The translations under genes were made by a program, and so were the position numbers. 9,417 nt of DNA from a virus (Duplodnaviria > Heunggongvirae > Uroviricota > Caudoviricetes): IMG/VR virus record IMGVR_UViG_2700989509_000013. The stretch is one strand, 5' to 3'. Each line of letters starts with the position of its first letter. Within the stretch, counting starts at the first letter, position 1. Shown piece after piece: positions 256-9,233 of this stretch. A model generated the notes under the pieces. The model was given only the letters and a program-made list of their open reading frames with translations. It had not been told where the DNA came from and searched no databases.

Positions 256-456
256 GAAAATAAAGGGATAACGATGATAGTTTGAGAAAAACAGAAATAA
301 CACTTTTGTGGCAAAGCATGGTGCCGGGTGCCTCCCGGTGAATTCAGTATCAGCACCTGAATCCGCGATTACCCCATATTCCTTCTTGCTGATTGCCCCA
401 CCGCACAGGGGGATTCACCATGCAGAAGTGTTTTTAATAAACAGCAAACAAAAAAA

Positions 457-1185: not shown

Positions 1186-1209
1186 AAAAAAGGCCCGCAA
1201 AAGCGAGCC
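1186..1209 (-). terminator. Rho-independent terminator downstream of the tRNA cluster (minus strand)
   Basis: Minus-strand hairpin: 7-bp stem (1192-1198 with 1203-1209, one G-U), UUUU loop, followed by a U6 tract (plus A-run 1186-1191). Confidence 0.5.
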
Positions 1210-1225
1210 GGGAAAATAAGTGTAG

Positions 1226-1299
1226 CGCGTTGTACTGGAGTCGAACCAGTGACCGATTGCTTAGAAGGCAATTGCTCTGTCCTGCTGAGCTAACAACGC
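1226..1299 (-). tRNA. tRNA-Arg (anticodon UCU)
   Basis: Clean cloverleaf on the minus strand: acceptor GCGTTGT/ACAACGC, D-arm GCTC/GAGC, anticodon stem ATTGC/GCAAT with loop CTTCTAA, T-arm ACTGG-TTCGACT-CCAGT. CCA not encoded. Confidence 0.9.
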
Positions 1300-1312
1300 A
1301 GAATACCGATAA

Positions 1313-1388
1313 TGGACCACCACCGGGGACTCGAACCTCGCACACTCAACTTAAAGGGTTGACGCTCTTTCCTGATGGCTAGTGGCGG
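1313..1388 (-). tRNA. tRNA-like gene, structurally degenerate (possible pseudo-tRNA; anticodon loop CCUUUAA would read UUU)
   Basis: Acceptor CCGCCAC/GTGGTGG pairs (one G-U) and CCA is encoded; anticodon stem TCAAC/GTTGA is perfect. D-stem has only 2 pairs (GCCA vs GAGC), T-stem has an A-C mismatch, position 33 is C not U, discriminator is U. Confidence 0.45.
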
Positions 1389-1389
1389 T

Positions 1390-1465
1390 TGGTGGCCCTT
1401 GCTGGATTTGAACCAGCGACCTGGCGATTATGAGTCGCTCGCTCTCACCACTGAGCTAAAGGGCC
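1390..1465 (-). tRNA. tRNA with anticodon CAU (Ile2/Met type, ileX/ileZ-like), CCA encoded
   Basis: GGCCCTTTAGCTCAGTGGTGAGAGCGAGCGACTCATAATCGCCAGGTCGCTGGTTCAAATCCAGCAAGGGCCACCA: 7-bp acceptor, GCTC/GAGC D-stem, loop CTCATAA, T-arm GCTGG-TTCAAAT-CCAGC. Closely resembles remembered E. coli ileX. Confidence 0.9.
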
Positions 1466-1474
1466 GGGCGCAGG

Positions 1475-1503
1475 ATAATAACGTTACGAAATCAATGTTG
1501 CAA
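1475..1503 (-). promoter_or_regulatory. Candidate sigma70 promoter for the tRNA cluster (possible late promoter)
   Basis: Minus strand: -35 TTGCAA (plus 1498-1503), 17-bp spacer, -10 TATTAT (plus 1475-1480), ending about 8 nt upstream of the tRNA 5' end at 1465. Confidence 0.4.
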
Positions 1504-1570
1504 GCATACAAAAATCACCCTTATCTCCTCCACCAGCGCATTCACCATGTCTATCCGAGATAAGTGGCAC

Positions 1571-1600
1571 AAAAAAACCCGCTTGTGGGCGGGTTTTGTT
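1571..1600. terminator. Bidirectional rho-independent terminator between Q-like gene and tRNA cluster
   Basis: Hairpin CCCGC-TTGTGG-GCGGG (1578-1593) flanked by A7 (1571-1577) and TTTTGTTT (1594-1601); gives a U-tract on either strand. Confidence 0.55.
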
Positions 1601-1660
1601 TGCTTTTGCCATCACGTACAAAATCGGCAAAATATCAGATTTGCATGAAATATATGCCTT

Positions 1661-2350
1661 TCAATCTACTTTTGCAACACTTTGCTTTGAAAATGCCGCC
1701 TTTTGTTTTGAACGTGTTCTCATTACAAACAATAAAGCCTCACTATCCAGTCGGTGAAAAATGTGTTTCATTGCAACCCAGTGACGAGTAAATGTTTTGG
1801 ACCAGTTTTTAGTTGTCACTCCCGCCAGTAATGCCAGCTCCTGATATTCATAACCTTCCCCACCAAAAAGTTCTGCTTTTACTGCCTGCGCCGCCAGCCA
1901 GATTAATTTTTTCAGGCGTTCCTGCGTTTTCCCAGCAATTTTTCTGGTACCGGATTGAGTATTAAATTCATTCCACGCCCACTGTGTTATCGCGATCTGA
2001 TATTCCCAACAAATACTCCCGCTGTAACACCACAACAACCAGGCTTTATGATGTTCTTCAAGAGACAGAACAGCCCGCCGCCACGATGATGTCGAAAACT
2101 CAACCGGACTGACCAGAGGAATTGACGTCACCTTCGCCAGCGATTGCTTTCCCGGGATTGGTGGATTATCCCGCGTTATCATTTTTCCAGTCACTTCATC
2201 GCGGTACCGGATTTTTTTTCGCCTGTAACGCCCTGTATCGAACATGGCATTCTCCTGCCAGGCTTCAAGCTGACCTTTTGTTGCCCCACTCAAATCAGCG
2301 GTGGCGATAATGAGCTGCTCACGCACAAACTGTAAATAGTGGTTATTCAT
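1661..2350 (-). CDS. Putative late antiterminator Q-like protein (229 aa from ATG 2350)
   Basis: Intact ORF directly downstream of rusA with ATGA stop/start overlap at 2347-2350, followed by terminator and tRNAs as in lambdoid Q regions. Assignment rests mainly on synteny; family not confirmed by motif. Track start at 2356 is GTG. Confidence 0.5.
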   Translation of the reverse strand: MNNHYLQFVREQLIIATADLSGATKGQLEAWQENAMFDTGRYRRKKIRYRDEVTGKMITRDNPPIPGKQSLAKVTSIPLVSPVEFSTSSWRRAVLSLEEHHKAWLLWCYSGSICWEYQIAITQWAWNEFNTQSGTRKIAGKTQERLKKLIWLAAQAVKAELFGGEGYEYQELALLAGVTTKNWSKTFTRHWVAMKHIFHRLDSEALLFVMRTRSKQKAAFSKQSVAKVD

Positions 2351-2712
2351 GCGCACTCCAGTTCTGTGATTTTTATCCCCAGCCGCCCACCAGGAACGAG
2401 CTGACCGCGCACAATATTGATTTCATCAAACTGCTCGTCGTCTATGAGAAGTCCGGCATGCGTCAGCACATCCAGTGGTGCTTTCAGGATATTGTCCAGG
2501 TCACGACGGCGCTTATCCGGTGGCTCTGCAATAATCTTTATCACCAGCCTTCCGGACAGGTTTAATTTCAGCCGCTGCTGGCGAACAATTAGCGCCACAT
2601 CACGGCGATAACGCTTTCCGGCTTCCGAGATGAAATACGTATTGCCATGACGTCGCCAGTAGGTATTCACCGTCGGCGGGTAAGGCAAAACAAATTCTAT
2701 CCGTTCAGTCAT
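2347..2712 (-). CDS. rusA: Crossover junction endodeoxyribonuclease RusA (Holliday junction resolvase)
   Basis: 121-aa product MTERIEFVLPYPPTVNTYWRRHG…DKRRRDLDNILKAPLDVLTHAGLLIDDEQ… matches remembered RusA (acidic catalytic motif, size). ATG at 2712 abuts the DUF968 stop at 2713-2715. Confidence 0.9.
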   Translation of the reverse strand: MTERIEFVLPYPPTVNTYWRRHGNTYFISEAGKRYRRDVALIVRQQRLKLNLSGRLVIKIIAEPPDKRRRDLDNILKAPLDVLTHAGLLIDDEQFDEINIVRGQLVPGGRLGIKITELECA

Positions 2713-3768
2713 TCATGCTTTCCACTTCAGGACACCCGAATTTCTCGCGTGCATTAAAAAACGAATCAGCAACAACAACTGACTACCGTGTTTTTCTTCA
2801 AAATCTTTTACCCCGGCGTGTAGTTCGTTATGGCATTTACGACACAGCGGAATAACAAACAAATCGTCAGCCTTTGTTCCCATCCCTCCCAGTCCATGAC
2901 CAATGATGTGATGCGGATCATCTGCCTGATTACCGCACGTCATGCATTTCTGCGTTTTTACCCAGCGCGTGTATACAGGCATCTCTTCCCGTTGTGGTTT
3001 CTGGCGCTGGAGATACTGAGCCGGTGACTCCGGATCAACGGCAATGCTGACCACCGTCTTTTCCTGTGGCGGGTTTTGCTGGTGGGCGTGAGGCAGCGGC
3101 GCAAGATTTTTTGTGCGCTGCTTCAGTATGCTGGTGGCGGTCTGCTCTCCCGGTACGATGTCGCTTTCACGGTACATTGAGCGGATTTTTTCCGCCGGTA
3201 ATCCCAGAGAACGACGCGATACTGCCTCAGGTAATGCGTCCACCACCTGATTGCAGACTGCCCACCAGGATAATTCAGCCAGCGATAATTCCCGTTCCTG
3301 TGTGCTATTCATTGCGTGGCGGATGACGTCAATCATCCATGCTGACAGATTTTGATGAGCAAGTTGCCCGAGTGATTCGGATGTCTGGTCACGCAGCTGG
3401 TTGTCGCAGTGCCAGCACAACACCATTGCGCCGGTACCATAACGGTGAATGACGGTTTCGCTGTGATGATAATCGCCGTGTGGCCACTGGCAGGATTTAA
3501 TATGGCGCAACAGCCAGTCAGACAATGCACCAGCACCACCAGCAGCACGAATCACACGCTCATTGCTGAAAAATGGCAGTAATGATTTATCTTCCGCCAG
3601 CGGCTGGCGAACGGCAGGAACGACCCCGGACGGCAGATTACGCATGCTTTTCGGTTCAGACTCCACCAGCACCCTGCCGCCATGAAATACCCGCATGGAT
3701 TCACGGCCTGGCTTAACGATAACCACCCCGAGTTCCGGTACCAGAACAGGTCGAAGTAATACCCGCAC
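2713..3768 (-). CDS. DUF968 (YdfU-like) protein with C-terminal Cys/His HNH-like motif
   Basis: 351-codon ORF; C-terminus CMTCGNQADDPHHIIGHGLGGMGTKADDLFVIPLCRKCHNELH is the characteristic motif. Codon at 3766-3768 is GTG; first ATG is at 3694-3696 (MRVFHGG…), so the start is ambiguous. Confidence 0.85.
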   Translation of the reverse strand: MRVLLRPVLVPELGVVIVKPGRESMRVFHGGRVLVESEPKSMRNLPSGVVPAVRQPLAEDKSLLPFFSNERVIRAAGGAGALSDWLLRHIKSCQWPHGDYHHSETVIHRYGTGAMVLCWHCDNQLRDQTSESLGQLAHQNLSAWMIDVIRHAMNSTQERELSLAELSWWAVCNQVVDALPEAVSRRSLGLPAEKIRSMYRESDIVPGEQTATSILKQRTKNLAPLPHAHQQNPPQEKTVVSIAVDPESPAQYLQRQKPQREEMPVYTRWVKTQKCMTCGNQADDPHHIIGHGLGGMGTKADDLFVIPLCRKCHNELHAGVKDFEEKHGSQLLLLIRFLMHARNSGVLKWKA

Positions 3769-3769
3769 G

Positions 3770-4048
3770 TTACCTCCAGATGCGCTGGCAATAACTGACT
3801 GGTGTACGTGGCTGATGATTTGATACAGGTAATGTCACCGAAACAAACCACGTCCTGCCGTCAGGGTTGAGTTGCTTTATTATTGTGTATCCGCGACGAC
3901 CGTATAACTCTTCAAGTTCCCCGAGTTCATGCGTCGTACAGTCCGGATAGTAGAAAGGGGGTTTTTCAGATACGGAAAATCGCCGTCCGTGCCTGCTTGC
4001 AGGGTCGACTGAATTATTGGGATTATGACGTTTGGTATAATGCACCAC
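3770..4048 (-). CDS. Hypothetical protein, 92 aa, GTG start (possibly Rem-like by position only)
   Basis: ORF bounded by stops at 4085-4087 and 3770-3772; no ATG in frame, tandem GTG at 4043-4048 preceded by GAGGG with 5-nt spacer. No recognisable motif. Confidence 0.4.
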   Translation of the reverse strand: MVHYTKRHNPNNSVDPASRHGRRFSVSEKPPFYYPDCTTHELGELEELYGRRGYTIIKQLNPDGRTWFVSVTLPVSNHQPRTPVSYCQRIWR

Positions 4049-4108
4049 TACAACCCTCGTAATGGTGCGACAGGAGCCAGTTGTTCAGGCTGGCTTCACC
4101 AGTATAAT

Positions 4109-4276
4109 TTAGTCTTCTTTAATACAGAAGTGGCTGACAGAATCCATGTGAGATTCTTTAGTGATCAGAATGGCGTCGGGTGGTAACGGCATTACAATAA
4201 ACTCTCCATTTGCAAGGGTTATCACCTCATAACTACCCGGTACAGAAAGCGCAGCAATTAATTCCTTATCATTCAT
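4109..4276 (-). CDS. Hypothetical small protein, 55 aa (not in ORF track)
   Basis: ATG 4274-4276 to TAA 4109-4111: MNDKELIAALSVPGSYEVITLANGEFIVMPLPPDAILITKESHMDSVSHFCIKED. Weak RBS. Candidate promoter upstream on minus strand (TTGAGC-18-TAGAAT) and a 12-bp palindrome about 30 nt before the start. Confidence 0.3.
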   Translation of the reverse strand: MNDKELIAALSVPGSYEVITLANGEFIVMPLPPDAILITKESHMDSVSHFCIKED

Positions 4277-4304
4277 AACAAAACCCTATGAACTTTTAAC
4301 ATTT

Positions 4305-4316
4305 CCCCTTAAGGGG
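4305..4316. promoter_or_regulatory. Perfect 12-bp palindrome CCCCTTAAGGGG (operator or 5'-UTR hairpin)
   Basis: Exact palindrome read directly, sitting between the candidate promoter and the start of the 55-aa ORF. Confidence 0.3.
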
Positions 4317-4400
4317 TCCATCCCTCTTCTCCCTGCGCGCTACTTAAGTATTTTTGATTCTATTCCGGCACCTTCAAAAAGCTCAAACGTCTTGAAAATA

Positions 4401-4428
4401 AACAACAAAAAACCCGCCGAAGCGGGTT
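4401..4428 (-). terminator. Rho-independent terminator at the 3' end of the hok transcript
   Basis: Minus-strand hairpin AACCCGC-TTCG-GCGGGTT (4411-4428) followed by UUUUGUUGUU; about 70 nt past the hok stop. Confidence 0.5.
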
Positions 4429-4496
4429 AAGTGCGGGTGCGTTGAGGATGCCTGACACATCAGAGGTGGCGAGGGATTTCTCCCCCGCCGGGTCTC

Positions 4497-4652
4497 TTAC
4501 TCCTCAGGTTCGTAAACTGTGAAGACAGCGACCTCCGTCTGGCCGGTTCGGATTCGTACCTCGCAGAGGTCTTTCCTCGTTACCAGTGCCGTCACTATGA
4601 CGGTTAAACAGATGACGATCAGGGCGATTAACATCGCCTTTTGCTGCTTCAT
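4497..4652 (-). CDS. hok: Hok-family type I toxin (HokD/RelF-like), 51 aa
   Basis: MKQQKAMLIALIVICLTVIVTALVTRKDLCEVRIRTGQTEVAVFTVYEPEE is a near-exact match to remembered HokD. ATG at 4650-4652 with AAGGAG 9 nt upstream; an in-frame upstream ATG at 4709 gives the 70-aa track ORF. Confidence 0.9.
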   Translation of the reverse strand: MKQQKAMLIALIVICLTVIVTALVTRKDLCEVRIRTGQTEVAVFTVYEPEE

Positions 4653-4830
4653 AGCCTGCTTCTCCTTGCCTTTCGGCACGTAAGAGGCTAACCTACATTT
4701 GTGAGACATAGATTGGGCCTCAGATTAATGTTAAGCGTCTTGCAGGACGCCGAATGTTAACTGGGGCTTTTCTCTATCTGCCTTTGGTGTTCATGCCTGA
4801 GACAGATAGCCTCAAGCACCCGCAGCCATT
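4653..4830 (-). promoter_or_regulatory. hok mRNA leader region (expected site of mok-like overlap, fold-back elements and antisense Sok-like RNA; not resolved)
   Basis: Position relative to hok plus inverted repeat CTATCTG/CAGATAG at about 4769-4808. Sok promoter could not be pinned down by eye. Confidence 0.3.
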
Positions 4831-5114
4831 CTACTTAACTCCCGTTACCTCGCCAATATGAAATCAATCAGAAAGGTGCTCCATAAGAACAATAACAAGA
4901 CAATAAATTGCCATTACAGCCGCAATAGCCAGCGCACATTTCAGAACCAGCACGATGACCTCCCATATTTGACGTACACGCGCATGATTCAATATGTAGC
5001 AACCTATTTCTTGCTTCAATATAAAATCAGGTATTGTTGCATAACTATTTAACTGACTCCCTATCCCCACATCTCAGGCGCTCAACTTCTGTGTGCGGGG
5101 CGTTTTTTAATACC

Positions 5115-5198
5115 TTACCCCCAGCGGCAAATCGAATACACCACCAGCGCCACCGCTATCGCAATTCCTACCGTTGTAAATGCTTCAGGCCAGGTCAT
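5115..5198 (-). CDS. 27-aa hydrophobic peptide (single predicted TM helix), translationally coupled to upstream gene
   Basis: ATG 5196-5198 overlaps the TGA of the 187-aa gene (ATGA); GAGGA lies 9 nt upstream. Translation MTWPEAFTTVGIAIAVALVVYSICRWG, stop TAA at 5115-5117. Not in ORF track. Confidence 0.4.
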   Translation of the reverse strand: MTWPEAFTTVGIAIAVALVVYSICRWG

Positions 5199-5758
5199 CG
5201 CAAAATATCCTCCGCGCTTATCAGTCCGTTTCGCTTCAGGTAGTCCATCGCCTTCTCCGGTAATTTGCAGTCCGGCTTAGCTTTTTTCAGTTGGCTGACC
5301 AGTCGCTTAACCCACATTGTTAATTCGCTAACCTGATTGCCGGATGCTGGGGGATTGTCGGCTTTACCCAGAATGGCAGCACAGCAGGCCTCTTTGAGTA
5401 CCCAATCAACAGCGTCTTTCCATGCTCCTGTTTCGACTGGAGGATTCTCACGCCGTACCTGTTCATAAAAGCGCACAGCTTTAACCAGTCCTTCAGGCAC
5501 TACCGGCACAGGTGGAGCGACGAATAGTGGTTTAGGTGATATCTCCGCACGTTTTGCGTATGCTTCAACTATATCAGGATTAAACAGGATTATGTTTTCG
5601 CCGCATTCCCACGCTATCGGTTCTGCTTCCAGCGATGCCAATGCAATTTTGAATAACTCACCCTCTACTCGTGCCATCCCTGAATTGGGATGGCATTTCG
5701 CAATCGCTATTTTTAATTTAGCTTCTTCGATTAATTGCTCTTTGGTTAATTCAGTCAT
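5195..5758 (-). CDS. Hypothetical protein, 187 aa, no recognised domain
   Basis: Intact ORF MTELTKEQLIEEAKLKIAIAKCHPNSG…AEDILR. Start ATG at 5756-5758 lies inside a 4-codon uORF (ATG 5763-5765, MKND*) and downstream of a hairpin; coding-like composition. Confidence 0.6.
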   Translation of the reverse strand: MTELTKEQLIEEAKLKIAIAKCHPNSGMARVEGELFKIALASLEAEPIAWECGENIILFNPDIVEAYAKRAEISPKPLFVAPPVPVVPEGLVKAVRFYEQVRRENPPVETGAWKDAVDWVLKEACCAAILGKADNPPASGNQVSELTMWVKRLVSQLKKAKPDCKLPEKAMDYLKRNGLISAEDILR

Positions 5759-5767
5759 TTTTCATTA

Positions 5768-5789
5768 CCGCCCTTTCAGGCGGTCTCCT
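5768..5789 (-). promoter_or_regulatory. Hairpin between Shine-Dalgarno and start codon of the 187-aa gene
   Basis: Minus strand reads AGGAGA (plus 5784-5789), then stem CCGCC/GGCGG (5768-5772 with 5779-5783) with 6-nt loop, then UA-AUG. Folded, the SD-to-AUG spacing drops from about 19 nt to about 3. Confidence 0.3.
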
Positions 5790-5853
5790 GATGTTCTGAG
5801 GGTGCAGAAATCCCTCCGGTTAAGGATTAAATTTTTAACAGTGCTAAATTTAA

Positions 5854-6210
5854 TTATTCAGTTCTTGATTTTGCCGCCCTGCGTATACGTGCTTTCGCGT
5901 TACGCTCAATCTGAATTAGCTTTTCTATATTTCTCCGCCTTTCCCGTTCCTCCTGGCGCAAGAGCCTTACATCATCTGCCAGTCTGGTTTCTCTTTTCGC
6001 CATAGAGAGCATCCAGTCAAATGGCTCCACAACTGCACCGCAGATTTTACAGCGGACCTGACGCACTTTTTCGTCAACCCGGACAGAAGCGTGATGGCAA
6101 TATGGTCTTTCCGATGGCTCATAAAGAAAATTAACCTGATTACGTGGGTCATCCTCTTTTACCGGAAATAAAACAATATTACTTAACTCATCTTCTGGTT
6201 TTATTTCCAT
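5854..6210 (-). CDS. Hypothetical protein, 118 aa, possible zinc-ribbon (C-HH…C-x2-C) with basic C-terminal tail
   Basis: ATG 6208-6210 with AGGAGAGG 6 nt upstream. Contains YCHHASVRVDEKVRQVRCKICG and an Arg/Lys/Glu-rich C-terminal third. Overlaps the upstream gene by 23 nt. Confidence 0.6.
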   Translation of the reverse strand: MEIKPEDELSNIVLFPVKEDDPRNQVNFLYEPSERPYCHHASVRVDEKVRQVRCKICGAVVEPFDWMLSMAKRETRLADDVRLLRQEERERRRNIEKLIQIERNAKARIRRAAKSRTE

Positions 6211-6688
6211 GGTCCTCTCCTTTGATGCGAATGCCAGCGATAATTGAAGCCTGATAGCTAATTTTACTCACAGCCCCCCCCTGATAATTTCCCTGATAAA
6301 ACGCCAGCACTCGCTGCATAACTTCGCTCTTCCGGCACTCGCGACAGATTATATTCAGGCGCCTGTCGTAGCGACGTATTTCTCCGTCTGGTAATGACCA
6401 TATAAGGTCAGGATCAACCACAACCGGTTTCTTCAGCTTTGCCCTCGATAATTTTTTGCGGGCGTTTTGCCAGTCCTTACGCGCCTGTTCAGACGGGAAT
6501 AATCCGTAGCCTGAATTGTAAACATCACCACTGGCGACCAGTTCTCTGGCGAGAGTGCTTATGTAATACCTTGATGCACCGGTTTTAGCCTCCAGAGCCC
6601 GTAACGTCTCGCGACCGCTCAGACGTACAAGTTCAATAACCTGCCCTTTAATTTTTTCTCGCTCTTCTTGTGTAAAAACTTTTGCCAC
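6188..6688 (-). CDS. Hypothetical protein, 166 aa, GTG start, possible N-terminal HTH; occupies the position of a helicase loader but has no Walker motif
   Basis: GTG 6686-6688 preceded by AGGAGG with 4-nt spacer. N-terminal RETLRALEAKTGASRYYISTLAREL is HTH-like. No GxxGxGK[ST]. Confidence 0.6.
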   Translation of the reverse strand: MAKVFTQEEREKIKGQVIELVRLSGRETLRALEAKTGASRYYISTLARELVASGDVYNSGYGLFPSEQARKDWQNARKKLSRAKLKKPVVVDPDLIWSLPDGEIRRYDRRLNIICRECRKSEVMQRVLAFYQGNYQGGAVSKISYQASIIAGIRIKGEDHGNKTRR

Positions 6689-6728
6689 AAGTCCTCCTGA
6701 AAATTACCTCGTGACCTGAAATAAACAC

Positions 6729-7811
6729 TTACCCCCTGAAGCCCGGTGGAATTTCGGTATCCGGTTCAGAAATATGATTCACACAACGCTGGTTGTTCGT
6801 GCCGCTTACCGGGAGCAACCAGGGGTTTTCAAAATTTCGGTCCGGTCCAAAAAACGTCGTCGCTCGCTGAACAAATTCCGTTCCAGTTTTCCCGGTAACC
6901 GCCAGATATCTTGCGTAACGCCTCACGCCATCCAGCATGGCCTCTGGTGGCACCCCCTCGCGTAATCTGGCCTTCCAGGCACTGAAAGCGGATTTCTTCG
7001 GGTTTGCCCCGGCACGCAACGGGTACTCCCGCCAGACCTGTTCGAACACATCCGGATAATCCACTCGTCCCACAGACTGCCCGGTGTTTTCCGGGACTAC
7101 CCGATCGGCTTCCCACTGAATGGCGGAATCGGCTTCAGGCTGCTGCAGTTGGAGTGATTGCTCCGGCCTTGCGGTCATCACCTGCTGCACAGCGCCCGAA
7201 TCGGCTTTCAGCGCATACGCTGAATCGGCTTCCGGTGTCGTGCCTGCTGGCTGACCAGGATTGACGGTCTGAACATCCCCTGCCTGGTTCGTGGCGTTTT
7301 TTACGCCATGGACCATAGTGTTTTGATCTTCTTTATCTGTATCTTTATCTGTATCTTTATCTGTATCTTTATCTGTCGTGACTTGCCGTGACATGTGCGT
7401 GACATTTCGTGACGCGCCGTGACAATCGCCATTTTGTTCCCGCTTTCTTTCCCTCTCTCGCTGCGCCCTCTTGCGCTCTGCAGGAGATTTTGCGGTTTGC
7501 GAAATATTGCCGTTGTCCTCTTTCAGCACCTGGCGTTTTTCCCATCCAGTGATTAAATCACCATCAAGTACCCGCCCCTGCATCGTCTGCAAAATTGAAT
7601 CAATTACCTCTTCTGTCACGTCGAGCGCACTTGCCAAATCTTCTGTCGTGACATCAATGTGACCTCGCGTGACATTTCGTGACGCGCTCACCAGGAGGTG
7701 GATATACACTGCCATCACTGTTGCAATTGGCTGCCCTGACACCCTGGCAATTGTTCGCCACTTAGGGTCATTTGGCATGTCATGCCATAATCTGAGCCAG
7801 GCGTTGGCCAT
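6729..7811 (-). CDS. Phage replication initiator (lambda O-like replisome organiser) with iterons inside the coding sequence
   Basis: 360-aa ORF from ATG 7809-7811 (GAGGTGA just upstream; track start at 7817 is GTG). N-terminal MANAWLRLWHDMPNDPKWRTIA…, central DKDT x4 linker, C-terminal …FEQVWREYPLRAGANPKKSAFSAWKARL… resembling remembered phage replication-protein C-terminal domains. Sits directly downstream of the cro-like/YdaT-like genes. Confidence 0.7.
   Translation of the reverse strand: MANAWLRLWHDMPNDPKWRTIARVSGQPIATVMAVYIHLLVSASRNVTRGHIDVTTEDLASALDVTEEVIDSILQTMQGRVLDGDLITGWEKRQVLKEDNGNISQTAKSPAERKRAQRERERKREQNGDCHGASRNVTHMSRQVTTDKDTDKDTDKDTDKEDQNTMVHGVKNATNQAGDVQTVNPGQPAGTTPEADSAYALKADSGAVQQVMTARPEQSLQLQQPEADSAIQWEADRVVPENTGQSVGRVDYPDVFEQVWREYPLRAGANPKKSAFSAWKARLREGVPPEAMLDGVRRYARYLAVTGKTGTEFVQRATTFFGPDRNFENPWLLPVSGTNNQRCVNHISEPDTEIPPGFRG
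7329..7376. repeat. Tandem 12-bp repeat, about 4 copies (CTTTATCTGTAT; 6-bp periodicity TATCTK), AT-rich
   Basis: Read directly at 7331-7376; encodes the DKDTDKDTDKDTDK linker on the minus strand. Immediately adjacent to iteron array A. Confidence 0.9.
7375..7425. repeat. Iteron array A: five direct CGTGAC repeats at about 10.5-bp spacing (probable origin of replication)
   Basis: CGTGAC begins at 7377, 7387, 7398, 7408 and 7418 (spacings 10, 11, 10, 10), in phase with the DNA helix and flanked by the AT-rich tandem repeat. Confidence 0.7.
7645..7687. repeat. Iteron array B: four GTGAC repeats at about 10-bp spacing
   Basis: GTGAC begins at 7648, 7659, 7668 and 7678. A 21-bp stretch GCGTGACATTTCGTGACGCGC (7667-7687) is repeated exactly at 7397-7417 in array A. 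Confidence 0.6.
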
Positions 7812-7882
7812 ACTCACCTCTTTTGATACCGAATCTTTTTACTCACAAATTGCCGGAAGTGATCCGGTATGAATATTGCGAG

Positions 7883-8308
7883 TCAATGCACAGCCACAAT
7901 ATTTCCTGCAGGGCCACCTCGATTTATCTGGTTGAAACCAGCGATCGCCACTGCGACAAAATCATCAGCGTCTCTCACCAGTCGCTCCCGCGTCTCCACC
8001 AGCTCCCGAAAATAAGCTGAACTGTGGCTGCGCATTCTGGCCACCAGCAAAGGTGGCATTGCCTTTTCGATCGCTGGTAACAGCGCCTGAATTTTTTTAA
8101 CCGCATCAGGAGTATCTTTCTCCACCCAGCGGAAAATTTTCTGAGTATTGCGAGCCAGGGCTTCCGGATGGCTGTCGTCATACAGTTCAGGAAACGTCAT
8201 ACCCAACTCAAAATAAGCCTGGGTTATTCCAGCTGCTGGAACTTTTTCGCCATCAGGACGCGCCCAGGCATTCATCGCCATGCGGATGTGTTCATGCTTG
8301 ATTTTCAT
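7883..8308 (-). CDS. YdaT-like prophage regulatory protein
   Basis: 141-aa product begins MKIKHEHI…, matching the remembered N-terminus of Rac prophage YdaT. ATG at 8306-8308, GGAG 8 nt upstream; overlaps the cro-like gene end by 17 nt. Confidence 0.7.
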   Translation of the reverse strand: MKIKHEHIRMAMNAWARPDGEKVPAAGITQAYFELGMTFPELYDDSHPEALARNTQKIFRWVEKDTPDAVKKIQALLPAIEKAMPPLLVARMRSHSSAYFRELVETRERLVRDADDFVAVAIAGFNQINRGGPAGNIVAVH

Positions 8309-8567
8309 GAATCAACTCCGGTGTATTTGGTGTGTTAGCCTTATCTCCAGCAGGCAACCCGTCAGTTGGATTCGGGTATAAATCTGGTCGCAATTCATGA
8401 GGAGTAACCCCAGTTGCAATATAAATTTGACGAACCCGTTCTCCCGTCGGCACTCGACCATTGTATTCATTTGCCCATTTGTGTATTTGAGATGGCCAAG
8501 CCCCTATTGCACGCCCTAGCGGACGAATACCACCAGCAATCTTTATTGCTTTGTCCAATGCTGTCAT
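8292..8567 (-). CDS. Cro-like HTH regulator of the YdaS/DicC family
   Basis: 91-aa product with …LGRAIGAWPSQIHKWANEYNGRVPTGERVRQIYIATGVTPHELRPDLY…, the YdaS/DicC-type pattern (…HELRPD). ATG 8565-8567 with GGAGG 4-5 nt upstream; divergent from the repressor gene. Confidence 0.75.
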   Translation of the reverse strand: MTALDKAIKIAGGIRPLGRAIGAWPSQIHKWANEYNGRVPTGERVRQIYIATGVTPHELRPDLYPNPTDGLPAGDKANTPNTPELIHENQA

Positions 8568-8595
8568 ACAACCTCCAGTTCAACTAACCACAACG

Positions 8596-8624
8596 ATTGT
8601 TCACTTAAAACGAACATAAGTCAA
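8596..8624 (-). promoter_or_regulatory. PR-like promoter with overlapping operator (drives cro-like operon)
   Basis: Minus strand: -35 TTGACT (plus 8619-8624), 17-bp spacer, -10 AACAAT (plus 8596-8601). Spacer and -10 contain the inverted repeat TTGTTC-N9-GAACA (plus 8597-8617). Confidence 0.5.
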
Positions 8625-8636
8625 CACCTCGAGGAA

Positions 8637-8664
8637 TTGTTAGTGTTCACTGAACGGTTATAAT
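8637..8664 (+). promoter_or_regulatory. PRM-like promoter for the repressor gene, giving a leaderless mRNA
   Basis: -35 TTGTTA (8637-8642), 16-bp spacer, perfect -10 TATAAT (8659-8664), 6 nt before the ATG at 8671 with no Shine-Dalgarno. Spacer carries the GTTCAcTGAAC palindrome (8645-8655). Confidence 0.5.
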
Positions 8665-8670
8665 TGCCAA

Positions 8671-9060
8671 ATGGACATGAGAAAAAAGCAATACGACACC
8701 CCGCTAGCAGAAAGGTTAGATACGATCTCTCAACAGCATCATTTAAGTGGTTCAGATTTAGCGCGTATCGCTGGTGTAGGTCGTTCATCAGTCAACGCAT
8801 GGAAAAAAAGAGGAACAATCAGTAAAGATTCCGCAGCCAAAATTGCAGAAGCCACAAACGTTTCCCTTTCTTGGCTACTGACAGGGAAAGAAGAGACAAA
8901 TAGAGAGGCGCTTGATGATGACGAGAAGGCCCTGCTTGATGTTTACAGAAACCTGCCACCTGTAGAACGTAGAAATATGCTGGCAGCTTTTCAAATGCGA
9001 CTCCAAAAACTGACCGAATTTTACTCAGAATACGTCGACCCAATAACACGACAAAAATAA
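8671..9060 (+). CDS. DicA/CI-like phage repressor (XRE-family HTH, no peptidase domain)
   Basis: 129-aa product with N-terminal HTH (…LSGSDLARIAGVGRSSVNAWKKRGTIS…) and C-terminal helical region …LLDVYRNLPPVERRNMLAAFQMRL… resembling remembered DicA. Divergent from the cro-like gene. Confidence 0.8.
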   Translation: MDMRKKQYDTPLAERLDTISQQHHLSGSDLARIAGVGRSSVNAWKKRGTISKDSAAKIAEATNVSLSWLLTGKEETNREALDDDEKALLDVYRNLPPVERRNMLAAFQMRLQKLTEFYSEYVDPITRQK

Positions 9061-9081
9061 TTCTTTATTTTACAGAATCAT

Positions 9082-9112
9082 ACCGCCACAAGGCGGTTTT
9101 TTTTTGTTTTTT
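9082..9112 (+). terminator. Rho-independent terminator after the repressor gene
   Basis: Hairpin CCGCC-ACAA-GGCGG (9083-9096) followed by T9, G, T6. Confidence 0.6.
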
Positions 9113-9126
9113 ACGTATTCATCATG

Positions 9127-9155
9127 TTGACTTTTGTTCACCTAGAGAGAACAAT
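9127..9155 (+). promoter_or_regulatory. PL-like promoter with overlapping operator
   Basis: -35 TTGACT (9127-9132), 17-bp spacer, -10 AACAAT (9150-9155); perfect inverted repeat TTGTTC-N9-GAACAA at 9134-9154. Same design as the PR-like promoter. Confidence 0.45.
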
Positions 9156-9233
9156 GTATTCCATCAAAGCACAACGGTGCGACAGGTCTTAGTTCCGCTA
9201 CCCCGGCGTTAAGGGGAAACAGAGGATTTCTCA

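What the first reader, a model, noticed from the sequence alone, without database searches (positions are those of the whole stretch)
1226..1465. Three-gene tRNA cluster with a degenerate middle member
The outer genes (CAU and Arg-UCU) are textbook cloverleaves, matching the ileZ-arg-arg style cluster known near Q in Stx-type lambdoid phages. The middle gene keeps a good acceptor stem, encoded CCA and a perfect anticodon stem, but has a collapsed D-stem, an A-C mismatch in the T-stem, C at position 33 and a loop that would read UUU. It is either a decaying pseudo-tRNA or a non-canonical tRNA-derived RNA.
Basis: partly seen in the sequence, partly recalled or inferred. Interest (0 to 1): 0.45.

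Follow-up and report, generated by a model that had tools for sequence, protein, structure and literature searches.

The report
Chimeric, degraded prophage tRNA-Lys-like gene
The odd middle gene of this prophage tRNA cluster is a recombination-made hybrid of a lysine-type phage tRNA with an unusual anticodon loop and the tail of an arginine tRNA, further damaged by a one-base deletion, so it is probably a weak or dead tRNA.

Summary
Three tRNA-like genes lie on the minus strand just downstream of the late antiterminator gene Q: CAU (1390-1465), a UUU gene (1313-1388) and Arg-UCU (1225-1299). The outer two score 68-73 bits on the Rfam tRNA model. The middle one scores 28.2, just under the 29-bit threshold.

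It is not a worn-down argN. Its 5' two-thirds are identical to a distinct "Lys*" allele with anticodon UUU, C33, an A51·C63 mismatch and U73. That allele normally sits in an ileZ–Lys*–Thr–Gly cluster found in at least 601 complete E. coli genomes. From gene index 70 onward the sequence matches an F349/1717-type argN plus argO. One crossover in a 22-nt shared T-arm stretch (1320-1341) explains the whole gene.

C33 and A·C are family traits, derived relative to a canonical sister allele scoring 53 bits. The D-stem deletion and G3·U70 are specific to this lineage.

Across lambdoid prophages this slot is about four times more variable than argO. About 22% of sampled clusters have no callable tRNA there.

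Best reading: a co-transcribed, hypomorphic or dead tRNA. A nuclease-resistant tRNA-Lys role for the family is not excluded, and neither is a processing role. Interest is modest.

The parts
1390..1465 (-). ileZ-type tRNA with anticodon CAU, annotated tRNA-Ile2 by PGAP. It is a canonical cloverleaf with an encoded CCA.
   Evidence: ARAGORN. Rfam tRNA 72.5 bits. PGAP 'tRNA-Ile' in an identical copy. Nearly invariant across loci, pi 0.005-0.006.
1313..1388 (-). The finding: a 76-nt chimeric tRNA-like gene. Its anticodon loop is CCUUUAA, with C33 at 1356 and UUU at 1355-1353. It also has a 1-nt D-stem deletion between 1378 and 1377, A51·C63 (1338/1326), G3·U70 (1386/1319), discriminator U73 and an encoded CCA. 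One nucleotide separates it from the ileZ CCA, and 13 nt separate it from argO.
   Evidence: ARAGORN tRNA-Lys(ttt). Rfam 28.2 bits, below the gathering score of 29. Alignments A1, A3 and A4.
1342..1388 (-). The 5' segment, gene index 1-47, derived from the Lys* allele. It is identical to L136, which also carries the D-stem deletion, and identical to the EC12 Lys* apart from that deletion.
   Evidence: Four-way alignment of window, EC12, F349 and L136. Variant table.
1320..1341 (-). Crossover zone: 22 nt of T arm and 3' acceptor strand that are identical in the Lys* and F349-type argN alleles.
   Evidence: Many E. coli genome alignments of the whole window end exactly at 1313.
1300..1319 (-). 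Sequence of F349/1717-type argN origin: U70 through the CCA, plus the 13-nt spacer TTATCGGTATTCT leading into argO.
1225..1299 (-). argO-type tRNA-Arg(UCU). It is a canonical cloverleaf, but its 3' end reads GCTA, so no CCA is encoded.
   Evidence: ARAGORN. Rfam 68.1 bits. Allele table.
1475..1503 (-). Sigma-70 promoter-like site, TTGCAA-17-TATTAT, followed by a G+C-rich stretch. It lies 10 nt upstream of ileZ and is conserved in the EC12 and F349 clusters.
   Evidence: Consensus scan only. Conservation in alignments. Function is inferred.
1192..1209 (-). Intrinsic-terminator-like hairpin plus T run, just after argO.
1574..1597 (.). G+C-rich hairpin with T runs on both strands, lying between Q and the tRNA promoter-like site. 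It is a candidate for the tR' terminator of the late-operon leader.
   Evidence: One search reports it on the plus strand. The minus-strand T run was read. Its role is inferred from lambda late-operon organisation.
1661..2356 (-). Late antiterminator gene Q, immediately upstream of the cluster.
   Evidence: ORF list. The identical region is annotated as Q in LC567818 and NZ_AP018808.

Best explanation
The middle gene is a recombinant tRNA gene, and probably a hypomorphic or dead one.

Shown. Its first 69 nt come from a prophage allele I call Lys*. Lys* is shaped like a tRNA-Lys(UUU) but has C33, an A51·C63 mismatch and discriminator U73. It normally sits in an ileZ–Lys*–Thr(UGU)–Gly(UCC) cluster downstream of Q in lambdoid prophages. 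Lys* and argN are homologous alleles of the same slot, with about 80% identity and three compensatory pair swaps. A crossover inside the 22-nt T-arm stretch that Lys* shares with the F349/1717-type argN joined the Lys* body to the argN 3' end and argO. This created G3·U70. The Lys* parent already carried a 1-nt deletion in the D stem.

Inferred. The gene is transcribed together with ileZ and argO, either from the promoter-like site at 1503-1475 or by Q-antiterminated late transcription. RNase P may still cut at its 5' end, 1 nt after the ileZ CCA. The accumulated lesions (C33, the T-stem mismatch, the bulged or shortened D stem, U73, G3·U70) would make it a poor substrate for folding, LysRS charging and decoding. 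It probably contributes little or nothing to translation and persists by hitch-hiking between two conserved tRNAs.
For: Origin:
- The 5' 47 nt are identical to the L136 Lys* allele, and the 3' end from index 70 is identical to F349 argN plus argO. No extra mutations are needed.
- The closest genome for the rest of the window is EC12 at 96.9%. It carries ileZ-Lys*-Thr-Gly, and its alignment stops exactly at 1313.
- The D-stem deletion also occurs in the Thr-type clusters L136 and L321.

The allele is real and structured:
- 96% of cells pair in the cloverleaf.
- The 7-66, 27-43 and 30-40 pairs swap UA/CG, CG/UA and GC/AU between argN and Lys*.

Decay series in the Rfam tRNA model:
- canonical sister allele L035: 53.2 bits
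- clean argN: 54.8 bits
- F349-type argN: 43.0 bits
- EC12 Lys*: 44.4 bits
- Evi: 37.0 bits
- window: 28.2 bits
- several other alleles: undetectable
- outer genes: 65-74 bits

Polarity: argN and L035 both have U33 and G51, so C33 and A51 are derived.

Slot softness:
- Pairwise diversity is 0.21 for the middle slot, 0.05 for argO and 0.006 for ileZ.
- 30 of 134 ileZ-anchored IMG/VR clusters have no callable middle tRNA.
- Deletions and fusions also occur.

Other points:
- C33 is exceptional. All 121 distinct non-family tRNAs in 3.57 Mb of fetched loci have T33.
- PGAP does not annotate this copy, but it does annotate the intact allele as tRNA-Lys.
Against: - The anticodon stem-loop, acceptor stem, T loop, G18G19 and CCA are all intact.
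- ARAGORN still calls the gene a tRNA, and the model score misses threshold by only 0.8 bit.
- The D-stem deletion can be drawn as three G-C pairs with one bulged A. That might be tolerated.
- The identical sequence is kept in at least 222 E. coli records. Those may be one clonal prophage lineage.
- In its native cluster Lys* is only 2-3 times more variable than its neighbours (pi 0.013 against 0.005-0.007), while the flanks diverge by about 20%. That is compatible with purifying selection on the parent allele.
- No expression, processing or charging data were available.
Confidence: 0.6

Rival explanations
1. Functional non-canonical tRNA-Lys. The Lys* family, including this copy, would supply a tRNA-Lys(UUU) whose altered anticodon stem-loop escapes host anticodon nucleases such as PARIS AriB, PrrC or RloC. 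Late phage translation could then continue when host tRNA-Lys is cleaved. This would resemble the T5 tRNA-Lys that neutralises PARIS.
For: - AriB recognises U36AAUC|A41 in E. coli tRNA-Lys(UUU). U39A abolishes cleavage and A41C inhibits it (PMC12409363; PMC11464382). Lys* reads U36AAGUU41, so the motif is absent (sequence).
- C33 sits directly at the PrrC cut site, 5' of the wobble base. The cut site is from established knowledge and was not checked here.
- Lysine codons are not rare and E. coli has several lysine tRNA genes (general knowledge), so codon supply is an unlikely reason to carry the gene.
- The anticodon stem was kept by compensatory changes.
- The parent allele is present in at least 601 genomes and is well conserved amid mosaic flanks.
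- The native cluster pairs it with Thr(UGU), the other prime AriB target (abstract).
Against: - The cluster's Thr(UGU) and Gly(UCC) are exact copies of host thrU and glyT. They would be as cleavable as the host's, which weakens a PARIS-specific reading.
- C33 and A51·C63 are defect-like changes, derived relative to a canonical sister allele.
- U73 replaces the A73 used by LysRS (general knowledge).
- This copy adds a D-stem deletion and G3·U70. G3·U70 is the AlaRS identity pair, so there is a risk of mischarging.
- The slot is often dead in other phages.
- No nuclease, charging or rescue data exist.
Confidence: 0.2
2. tRNA-shaped processing element. The middle unit would be kept not to decode but as an RNase P substrate that separates ileZ from argO in the tightly packed precursor. 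Its acceptor/T-arm minihelix would define the ileZ 3' end, 1 nt away.
For: - Spacers are only 1 nt (ileZ to X) and 13 nt (X to argO).
- In alleles ARAGORN cannot call, such as the mEp460 and Stx2c_JNE types, both acceptor strands and a T-arm-like hairpin are retained while the anticodon arm is replaced or deleted.
- The mEp460 type still folds into a cloverleaf-like shape, with a 7-bp hairpin and 3-nt loop in place of the anticodon arm.
- RNase P separation of closely spaced E. coli tRNA transcripts is established knowledge.
Against: - Some clusters lack the middle unit altogether or fuse argN to argO, so it is dispensable.
- Conservation of the ends can equally come from gene conversion with neighbouring alleles.
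- No processing data exist.
Confidence: 0.15
3. An argN that decayed in place by point mutations. This is the reading implied by 'degenerate middle member' of an ileZ-arg-arg cluster.
For: Same slot, same flanks, and 84% identity to F349 argN.
Against: - The 12 differences from F349 argN are all confined to the 5' 47 nt and reproduce an existing allele exactly.
- They include two paired, compensatory changes.
- The flanking tRNAs differ from F349 by at most one base each.
- The upstream DNA matches the EC12 (Lys*) type, not the F349 type.
Confidence: 0.03

Closest known systems
ileZ-argN-argO tRNA cluster of Stx-converting lambdoid phages (933W, VT2-Sakai, 2851, 1717, F349)
   Same: Same position between Q and the late genes, and the same order. 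ileZ and argO are essentially identical. The spacer and 3' end of the middle gene are identical to the F349/1717 type.
   Different: The middle gene's anticodon is UUU, not UCG. Its D loop, anticodon arm and variable loop belong to a different allele, and its D stem lacks one base.
Prophage tRNA-Lys(UUU)-like gene ('Lys*') of the ileZ-Lys-Thr-Gly cluster, annotated tRNA-Lys by PGAP in e.g. E. coli EC12, E66 and ECL27977
   Same: The first 69 nt are identical apart from the D-stem deletion. It has the same C33/UUU loop, A51·C63, U73 and ileZ partner.
   Different: The window copy has U70 (G3·U70) instead of C70. It is followed by argO instead of host-derived thrU and glyT copies. It scores 28.2 bits against 44.4.
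Phage T5 tRNA-Lys(UUU), which evades the PARIS nuclease AriB (PMC11464382, PMC12409363)
   Same: A phage-borne tRNA-Lys(UUU) whose 3' anticodon-stem sequence departs from the host's UAAUCA recognition and cleavage motif (sequence).
   Different: No homology was shown, and it comes from a temperate prophage rather than a lytic phage. It has C33 and other lesions not reported for T5. Resistance, charging and rescue are untested here.
tRNA pseudogenes and 'tRNA-pseudo' variants noted in stx2i prophage clusters (PMC13641118)
   Same: The tRNA-Ile/Arg/Arg cluster next to stx varies between strains and includes a member annotated as pseudo.
   Different: That paper reports the annotation only. The chimeric Lys*/argN origin described here is not mentioned there.

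Membership tests
Canonical bacterial elongator tRNA (Rfam RF00005) | Covariance-model score at or above the gathering threshold of 29 bits | tested here: not met
   28.2 bits, E=2e-4 in a 141-nt search. Absent from the gathering-threshold scan of the window.
Canonical bacterial elongator tRNA (Rfam RF00005) | 7-bp acceptor stem, discriminator base and 3' CCA | tested here: met
   CCGCCAC/GUGGUGG with one G·U at 3-70, then U73 and CCA.
Canonical bacterial elongator tRNA (Rfam RF00005) | D stem of 3-4 bp with G18G19 in the loop | tested here: inconclusive
   G18G19 are present. One T of the 5' strand is deleted. ARAGORN draws 2 bp. A 3-bp stem with a bulged A is possible, as read from alignment A4.
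Canonical bacterial elongator tRNA (Rfam RF00005) | 7-nt anticodon loop with U33 | tested here: not met
   The loop is CCUUUAA, with C at position 33. All 121 distinct non-family tRNAs in the fetched loci have T33.
Canonical bacterial elongator tRNA (Rfam RF00005) | 5-bp T stem with a UUCRANY loop | tested here: inconclusive
   The loop UUCGAGU is canonical. The stem has an A51·C63 mismatch.
argN (tRNA-Arg UCG of Stx phages) | Anticodon UCG, with C35 as the ArgRS determinant | tested here: not met
   The anticodon is UUU.
argN (tRNA-Arg UCG of Stx phages) | Lies between ileZ and argO, with the argN-type 3' end and spacer | tested here: met
   Identical to F349 from index 48 onward, including the spacer.
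Prophage Lys* allele (UUU, C33) | Lys*-type D loop, anticodon stem-loop and variable loop | tested here: met
   Index 1-69 is identical to L136, and identical to the main allele except for the deleted T.
Prophage Lys* allele (UUU, C33) | Watson-Crick acceptor stem (C70) and a following Thr(UGU)-Gly(UCC) | tested here: not met
   U70 is present and argO follows.
tRNA-Lys as a LysRS substrate | Anticodon U34-U35-U36 | tested here: met
   UUU at 1355-1353. That these bases are the identity elements rests on general knowledge.
tRNA-Lys as a LysRS substrate | Discriminator A73, and actual lysylation | tested here: not met
   The discriminator is U. Aminoacylation cannot be tested with these tools.
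Nuclease-evading phage tRNA (T5 tRNA-Lys / PARIS type) | The anticodon stem-loop departs from the host sequence at the nuclease recognition and cleavage site | tested here: met
   U36AAGUU41 against the host's U36AAUCA41 (sequence; motif from PMC12409363).
Nuclease-evading phage tRNA (T5 tRNA-Lys / PARIS type) | Resists cleavage and rescues phage growth on defence-positive hosts | not testable with these tools
   Needs AriB or PrrC cleavage assays and plaque assays.

The most novel reading that the evidence does not exclude
The C33-bearing Lys* tRNA family of lambdoid prophages, of which this gene is a damaged recombinant copy, would be an anti-defence device. It would be a tRNA-Lys(UUU), or an uncleavable decoy, whose altered anticodon stem-loop (C33, G39-U40-U41) escapes or titrates host anticodon nucleases such as PARIS AriB, PrrC and RloC. 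That would protect late-gene translation of temperate phages, including Stx-phage relatives.
Probability: 0.15. Interest if true: 0.6.

Novelty: new variant of a known kind. Interest (0 to 1): 0.33.

Why it matters
The tRNA slot next to Q, which in Stx phages also lies next to stx, turns out not to be a fixed ileZ-argN-argO unit. It is a recombining, polymorphic position holding arginine-type, lysine-type, tRNA-shaped but anticodon-less, and dead alleles. This matters in three ways.

- **Annotation.** The same gene is labelled tRNA-Lys in some records, blank in others and pseudo elsewhere.
- **tRNA evolution.** It gives a clean natural example of alloacceptor switching and of a chimeric tRNA made by crossover inside the T arm.
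- **Phage defence.** The parent Lys* allele is a widespread, untested candidate for a nuclease-evading tRNA in temperate phages. Its near-unique C33 makes that directly testable.

The particular copy in this window is most likely of little functional consequence.

Tried and rejected
- **Alternative fold or ordinary tRNA.** The Rfam model gives the same cloverleaf at 28.2 bits and no other family matches. Rejected.
- **In-situ decay of argN.** Rejected on the allele identity and crossover evidence.
- **Thermodynamic folding**. The minimum-energy structure is not the cloverleaf for this copy, but nor is it for the clean argN, so this does not discriminate.
- **Genome-contig scan with a 17-nt anticodon stem-loop pattern**. 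The pattern was too short for 596 Gb. Nearly all 120 hits were chance matches and only L204 and L251 were relevant.
- **Search for canonical U33 relatives** in IMG/VR and metagenomes. Only one lineage turned up (L035, L429, L430), so there is little depth for polarity or covariation beyond that.
- **PARIS-specific reading of the four-tRNA cluster.** Weakened because its Thr and Gly genes are exact host copies.
- **Literature searches** for ileZ/argN/argO and for prophage tRNA-Lys. No paper on this allele was found in the held library. The names ileZ, argN and argO come from GenBank annotations and from my own recall of the 933W genome paper.
- **Selection test from diversity within the native cluster**. 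Inconclusive, because Lys* is sandwiched 1-2 nt from conserved tRNAs and would hitch-hike with them.

Full report
**1. What is there**

ARAGORN finds three genes on the minus strand of the window: tRNA-Arg(tct) at 1225-1299, tRNA-Lys(ttt) at 1313-1388 and a CAU tRNA at 1390-1465. At gathering threshold the Rfam tRNA model reports only the outer two, at 68.1 and 72.5 bits. In a permissive search of 1280-1420 the middle gene scores 28.2 bits against a threshold of 29 (E=2e-4).

Reading that alignment and the ARAGORN drawing confirms these features:
- acceptor stem CCGCCAC/GUGGUGG, with G3·U70
- discriminator U73 and an encoded CCA
- a perfect anticodon stem, UCAAC/GUUGA
- loop CCUUUAA, that is C33 and anticodon UUU
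- T stem CGAGG/CCCCG with A51·C63
- a D arm missing one base

The cluster lies directly downstream of Q, at 1661-2356 on the minus strand. A sigma-70-like site, TTGCAA-17-TATTAT, sits at 1503-1475, 10 nt before the first tRNA. A terminator-like hairpin follows the last tRNA at 1209-1192. A second hairpin lies between Q and the cluster at 1574-1597.

Two corrections apply. The D stem can still form G-C, C-G, a bulged A and C-G. And the Arg-UCU gene ends GCTA, so it does not encode CCA.

**2. Where the sequence occurs**

The 301-nt cluster is 100% identical in 11 'PPompW' prophage records of non-O157 STEC. Those records label the middle gene tRNA-Lys. It is at least 99% identical in 222 E. coli records. 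All 30 listed rows annotate only tRNA-Ile and tRNA-Arg there. It is 94% identical to the ileZ-argN-argO cluster of Stx2 phages 2851, 1717 and F349.

**3. It is not a worn argN**

I aligned the window with F349. ileZ is identical and argO differs at one position. Twelve differences are packed into the middle gene, all within its first 47 nt. They include G30-C40 to A30-U40, U27·G43 to U27-A43 and U7·G66 to C7-G66. Such paired, structure-preserving changes are not what neutral decay produces.

I then scanned IMG/VR with the invariant 3' end of ileZ and with a pattern from the middle gene. The same 5' sequence, with an intact D stem and a fully Watson-Crick acceptor stem (C70), turned out to be a common allele. 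Here it is called Lys*:

CCGCCACTAGCTCATCAGGAAAGAGCGTCAACCCTTTAAGTTGAGTGTGCGAGGTTCGAGTCCCCGGTGGCGGTCCA

Lys* sits in a four-gene cluster, ileZ–Lys*–Thr(UGU)–Gly(UCC). That cluster is found at 80% coverage or more in 601 complete E. coli genomes. PGAP annotates Lys* as tRNA-Lys in strains E66, ECL27977 and EC12. It does not annotate a variant with C8/U11/U4 in E24377A (sequence). The Thr and Gly genes are exact copies of host thrU and glyT with tyrU removed.

**4. The crossover**

No complete E. coli genome covers 80% of the window. The best match is EC12 at 96.9%. It covers 1313-9219 and stops exactly at the 3' end of the middle gene, as do many other matches. EC12 carries ileZ–Lys*–Thr–Gly.

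A four-way alignment shows the following:
- The window matches the EC12 and L136 type from the Q region through gene index 47 (window 1342).
- It matches the F349 type from index 70 (window 1319) through argO and its terminator.
- All types are identical over the 22 nt in between (1320-1341; T arm and 3' acceptor strand).

L136 and L321 carry the same D-stem deletion inside a Thr-type cluster. One crossover between an L136-like cluster and an F349-like cluster therefore reproduces the window gene with no further change. G3·U70 is simply the argN-F349 U70 placed opposite the Lys* G3.

**5. Lys* and argN are structured homologues**

I aligned 44 distinct callable alleles to the cloverleaf:
- 96.1% of cells pair, against 28.6-53.1% when partners are slid by 1-3 columns.
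- Five pairs change on both sides.
- Three pairs separate the two allele classes cleanly: 7-66 UA/CG, 27-43 CG/UA and 30-40 GC/AU.

So the lysine-type allele evolved as a folded tRNA. It is an anticodon-switched relative of argN, about 80% identical.

**6. C33 and A51·C63 are derived, defect-like states**

The only relative with a normal loop found in IMG/VR and the metagenome collection is a single lineage: L035, L429 and L430. Its loop is CUUUUAU, its T stem CGGGG/CCCCG, and its acceptor stem CCGUCAC/GUGACGG with a compensatory U4-A69. It scores 53.2 bits.

Both this sister allele and argN have U33 and G51. C33 and A51 therefore arose on the Lys* branch. One Lys* sub-lineage has since restored the pair as A51-U63.

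C33 is exceptional. ARAGORN called tRNAs on all 430 fetched loci (3.57 Mb). All 121 distinct tRNAs outside this slot have T33, and all 16 non-T33 calls belong to this slot.

**7. The slot as a whole is soft**

| Measure | Result |
|---|---|
| Clean argN (PA18), Rfam bits | 54.8 |
| Canonical Lys (L035) | 53.2 |
| EC12 Lys* | 44.4 |
| F349-type argN | 43.0 |
| ECL27977 Lys* | 39.6 |
| Evi | 37.0 |
| Window | 28.2 |
| Stx2c_JNE, mEp460, YeP2, E24377A and L136 types | no hit at E≤1 |
| Neighbouring tRNAs | 65-74 |

In 111 ileZ-anchored clusters, mean pairwise difference is 0.006 for ileZ, 0.21 for the middle segment and 0.05 for argO. Of 134 ileZ-anchored clusters:
- 66 are ileZ–argN–argO
- 30 have no callable middle tRNA
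- 13 are the window type
- 13 are Lys*–Thr(–Gly)

Deletions of the anticodon arm and argN–argO fusions also occur. I also anchored on the prophage-specific Thr–Gly junction, which gave 130 clusters. There the second slot is Lys* in 70, Arg(UCU) in 31, and absent or odd in the rest.

Within 73 native clusters, pi is 0.013 for Lys*, against 0.0045-0.007 for ileZ, Thr and Gly. The flanks diverge by about 0.2. Lys* is thus somewhat relaxed but far from free. However, lying 1-2 nt from conserved tRNAs, it would hitch-hike with them.

**8. How it most likely works**

Shown: the origin, structure and degradation series above.

Inferred: the gene is co-transcribed with ileZ and argO. It probably still offers RNase P an acceptor/T-arm helix. 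It is a poor or inactive decoder because it combines several lesions:
- C33, which affects the U-turn
- a T-stem mismatch
- a shortened or bulged D stem, which loses the 12-23 pair
- U73 in place of the A73 that LysRS prefers
- G3·U70, the AlaRS identity pair

The roles of these positions are established knowledge and were not tested here. I put about 0.6 on 'hypomorphic or dead chimera'.

**9. Rivals**

(a) A nuclease-resistant tRNA-Lys. PARIS AriB cuts E. coli tRNA-Lys(UUU) and tRNA-Thr(UGU) at U36AAUC|A41. U39A abolishes cleavage, and the T5 tRNA-Lys variant escapes it (PMC11464382; PMC12409363). Lys* reads U36AAGUU41, so it lacks the motif. C33 abuts the PrrC cut site. Lysine codons need no supplement. 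Against this: the partner Thr gene is an exact host copy, the distinguishing changes look like defects, and this copy carries extra damage. I put about 0.2 on the family-level idea and less on this copy.

(b) A processing element. The unit is spaced 1 nt from ileZ. Uncallable alleles retain the acceptor strands and a T-arm-like hairpin. The mEp460 type folds as a cloverleaf with a 7-bp hairpin and 3-nt loop in place of the anticodon arm. But some clusters lack the unit entirely. About 0.15.

(c) In-situ decay of argN. Rejected.

**10. Comparison and novelty**

The closest known entities are:
- the ileZ-argN-argO cluster of Stx phages, with the same slot and flanks but a different allele body
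- the PGAP-annotated prophage tRNA-Lys, which is the parent allele

I found no paper describing the Lys* allele, its C33 or the chimera in the held library. One paper notes tRNA-Ile/tRNA-pseudo/tRNA-Arg variants next to stx2i.

I rate the finding a new variant of a known kind, a phage tRNA or pseudo-tRNA. Interest is about 0.33. This copy is probably inert. The polymorphic slot, the natural T-arm chimera and the C33 lysine-type allele are worth a short follow-up.

Noticed in passing
window 280-452 (-): Full-length match to the sRNA family STnc100 (100.8 bits), lying downstream of the tRNA cluster. Phage Evi has one copy at the equivalent place (119.9 bits). L035 has four tandem copies at 2265-3380 (76.6-131.9 bits).
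   Followed up: no
window 4647-4821 (-), with ORF 4497-4709 (-): A sok antisense RNA (116.9 bits) overlapping a hok-type toxin ORF. The equivalent gene is annotated hokD in related prophages.
   Followed up: no
window 1225-1229 (-): The Arg-UCU tRNA ends GCTA instead of GCCA, so its CCA is not encoded. The same C-to-T change is seen in 19 of 112 IMG/VR argO copies.
   Followed up: partly
window 1313: No complete E. coli genome out of 5,426 covers 80% or more of the window. Many of the best alignments end exactly at 1313. This marks the prophage as a mosaic joined inside the tRNA cluster.
   Followed up: yes
L027 591-690 (-) and about 25 other IMG/VR loci (e.g. L040, L045, L049, L082): A common 'dead' allele of the middle slot, the mEp460 type. 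ARAGORN and Rfam do not call it. It still folds into a cloverleaf-like shape, with a 7-bp hairpin and 3-nt loop where the anticodon arm should be and a 6-nt T-like loop.
   Followed up: partly
L034 7347-7503; L364 2345-2498; L136: The Thr(UGU) and Gly(UCC) genes of the prophage four-tRNA cluster are exact copies of host thrU and glyT with tyrU excised. L136 still carries a tyrU remnant after Thr. This implies that lambdoid phages captured part of the host thrU-tyrU-glyT-thrT operon.
   Followed up: partly
L035 4006-4160 (-); L429; L430: A sister cluster with a fully canonical tRNA-Lys(UUU) (53.2 bits). Its ileZ variant has an anticodon stem with a compensatory A-U to G-C change. No third tRNA follows. 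It is the only U33 relative found.
   Followed up: partly
L002 3115-3191 (-) (Stx2a_F349 argN; same in 1717, 2851, WGPS6): This argN allele of inducible Stx2 phages itself carries G3·U70 (the alanine identity pair), U7·G66 and the Lys*-type T arm with A51·C63. It scores only 43 bits, against 54.8 for 933W-type argN.
   Followed up: no
L363 1501-1578 (+) (Yersinia phage YeP2): A degenerate relative of the middle gene lies upstream of ileZ-like and Gly tRNAs, downstream of Q. ARAGORN calls it tRNA-Gln with an odd fold, and Rfam finds nothing. The record annotates a hypothetical protein on the opposite strand across it, which is probably spurious.
   Followed up: no
IMG/VR loci (5 loci; example): A further middle-slot allele that ARAGORN labels '???(ag)'. 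It begins CCGCCACTAGCTCATCGGGAAGAGCGGCAACCCAGGTGTTG and sits in ileZ–X–Thr–Gly clusters. It is another tRNA-like form without a normal anticodon loop.
   Followed up: no
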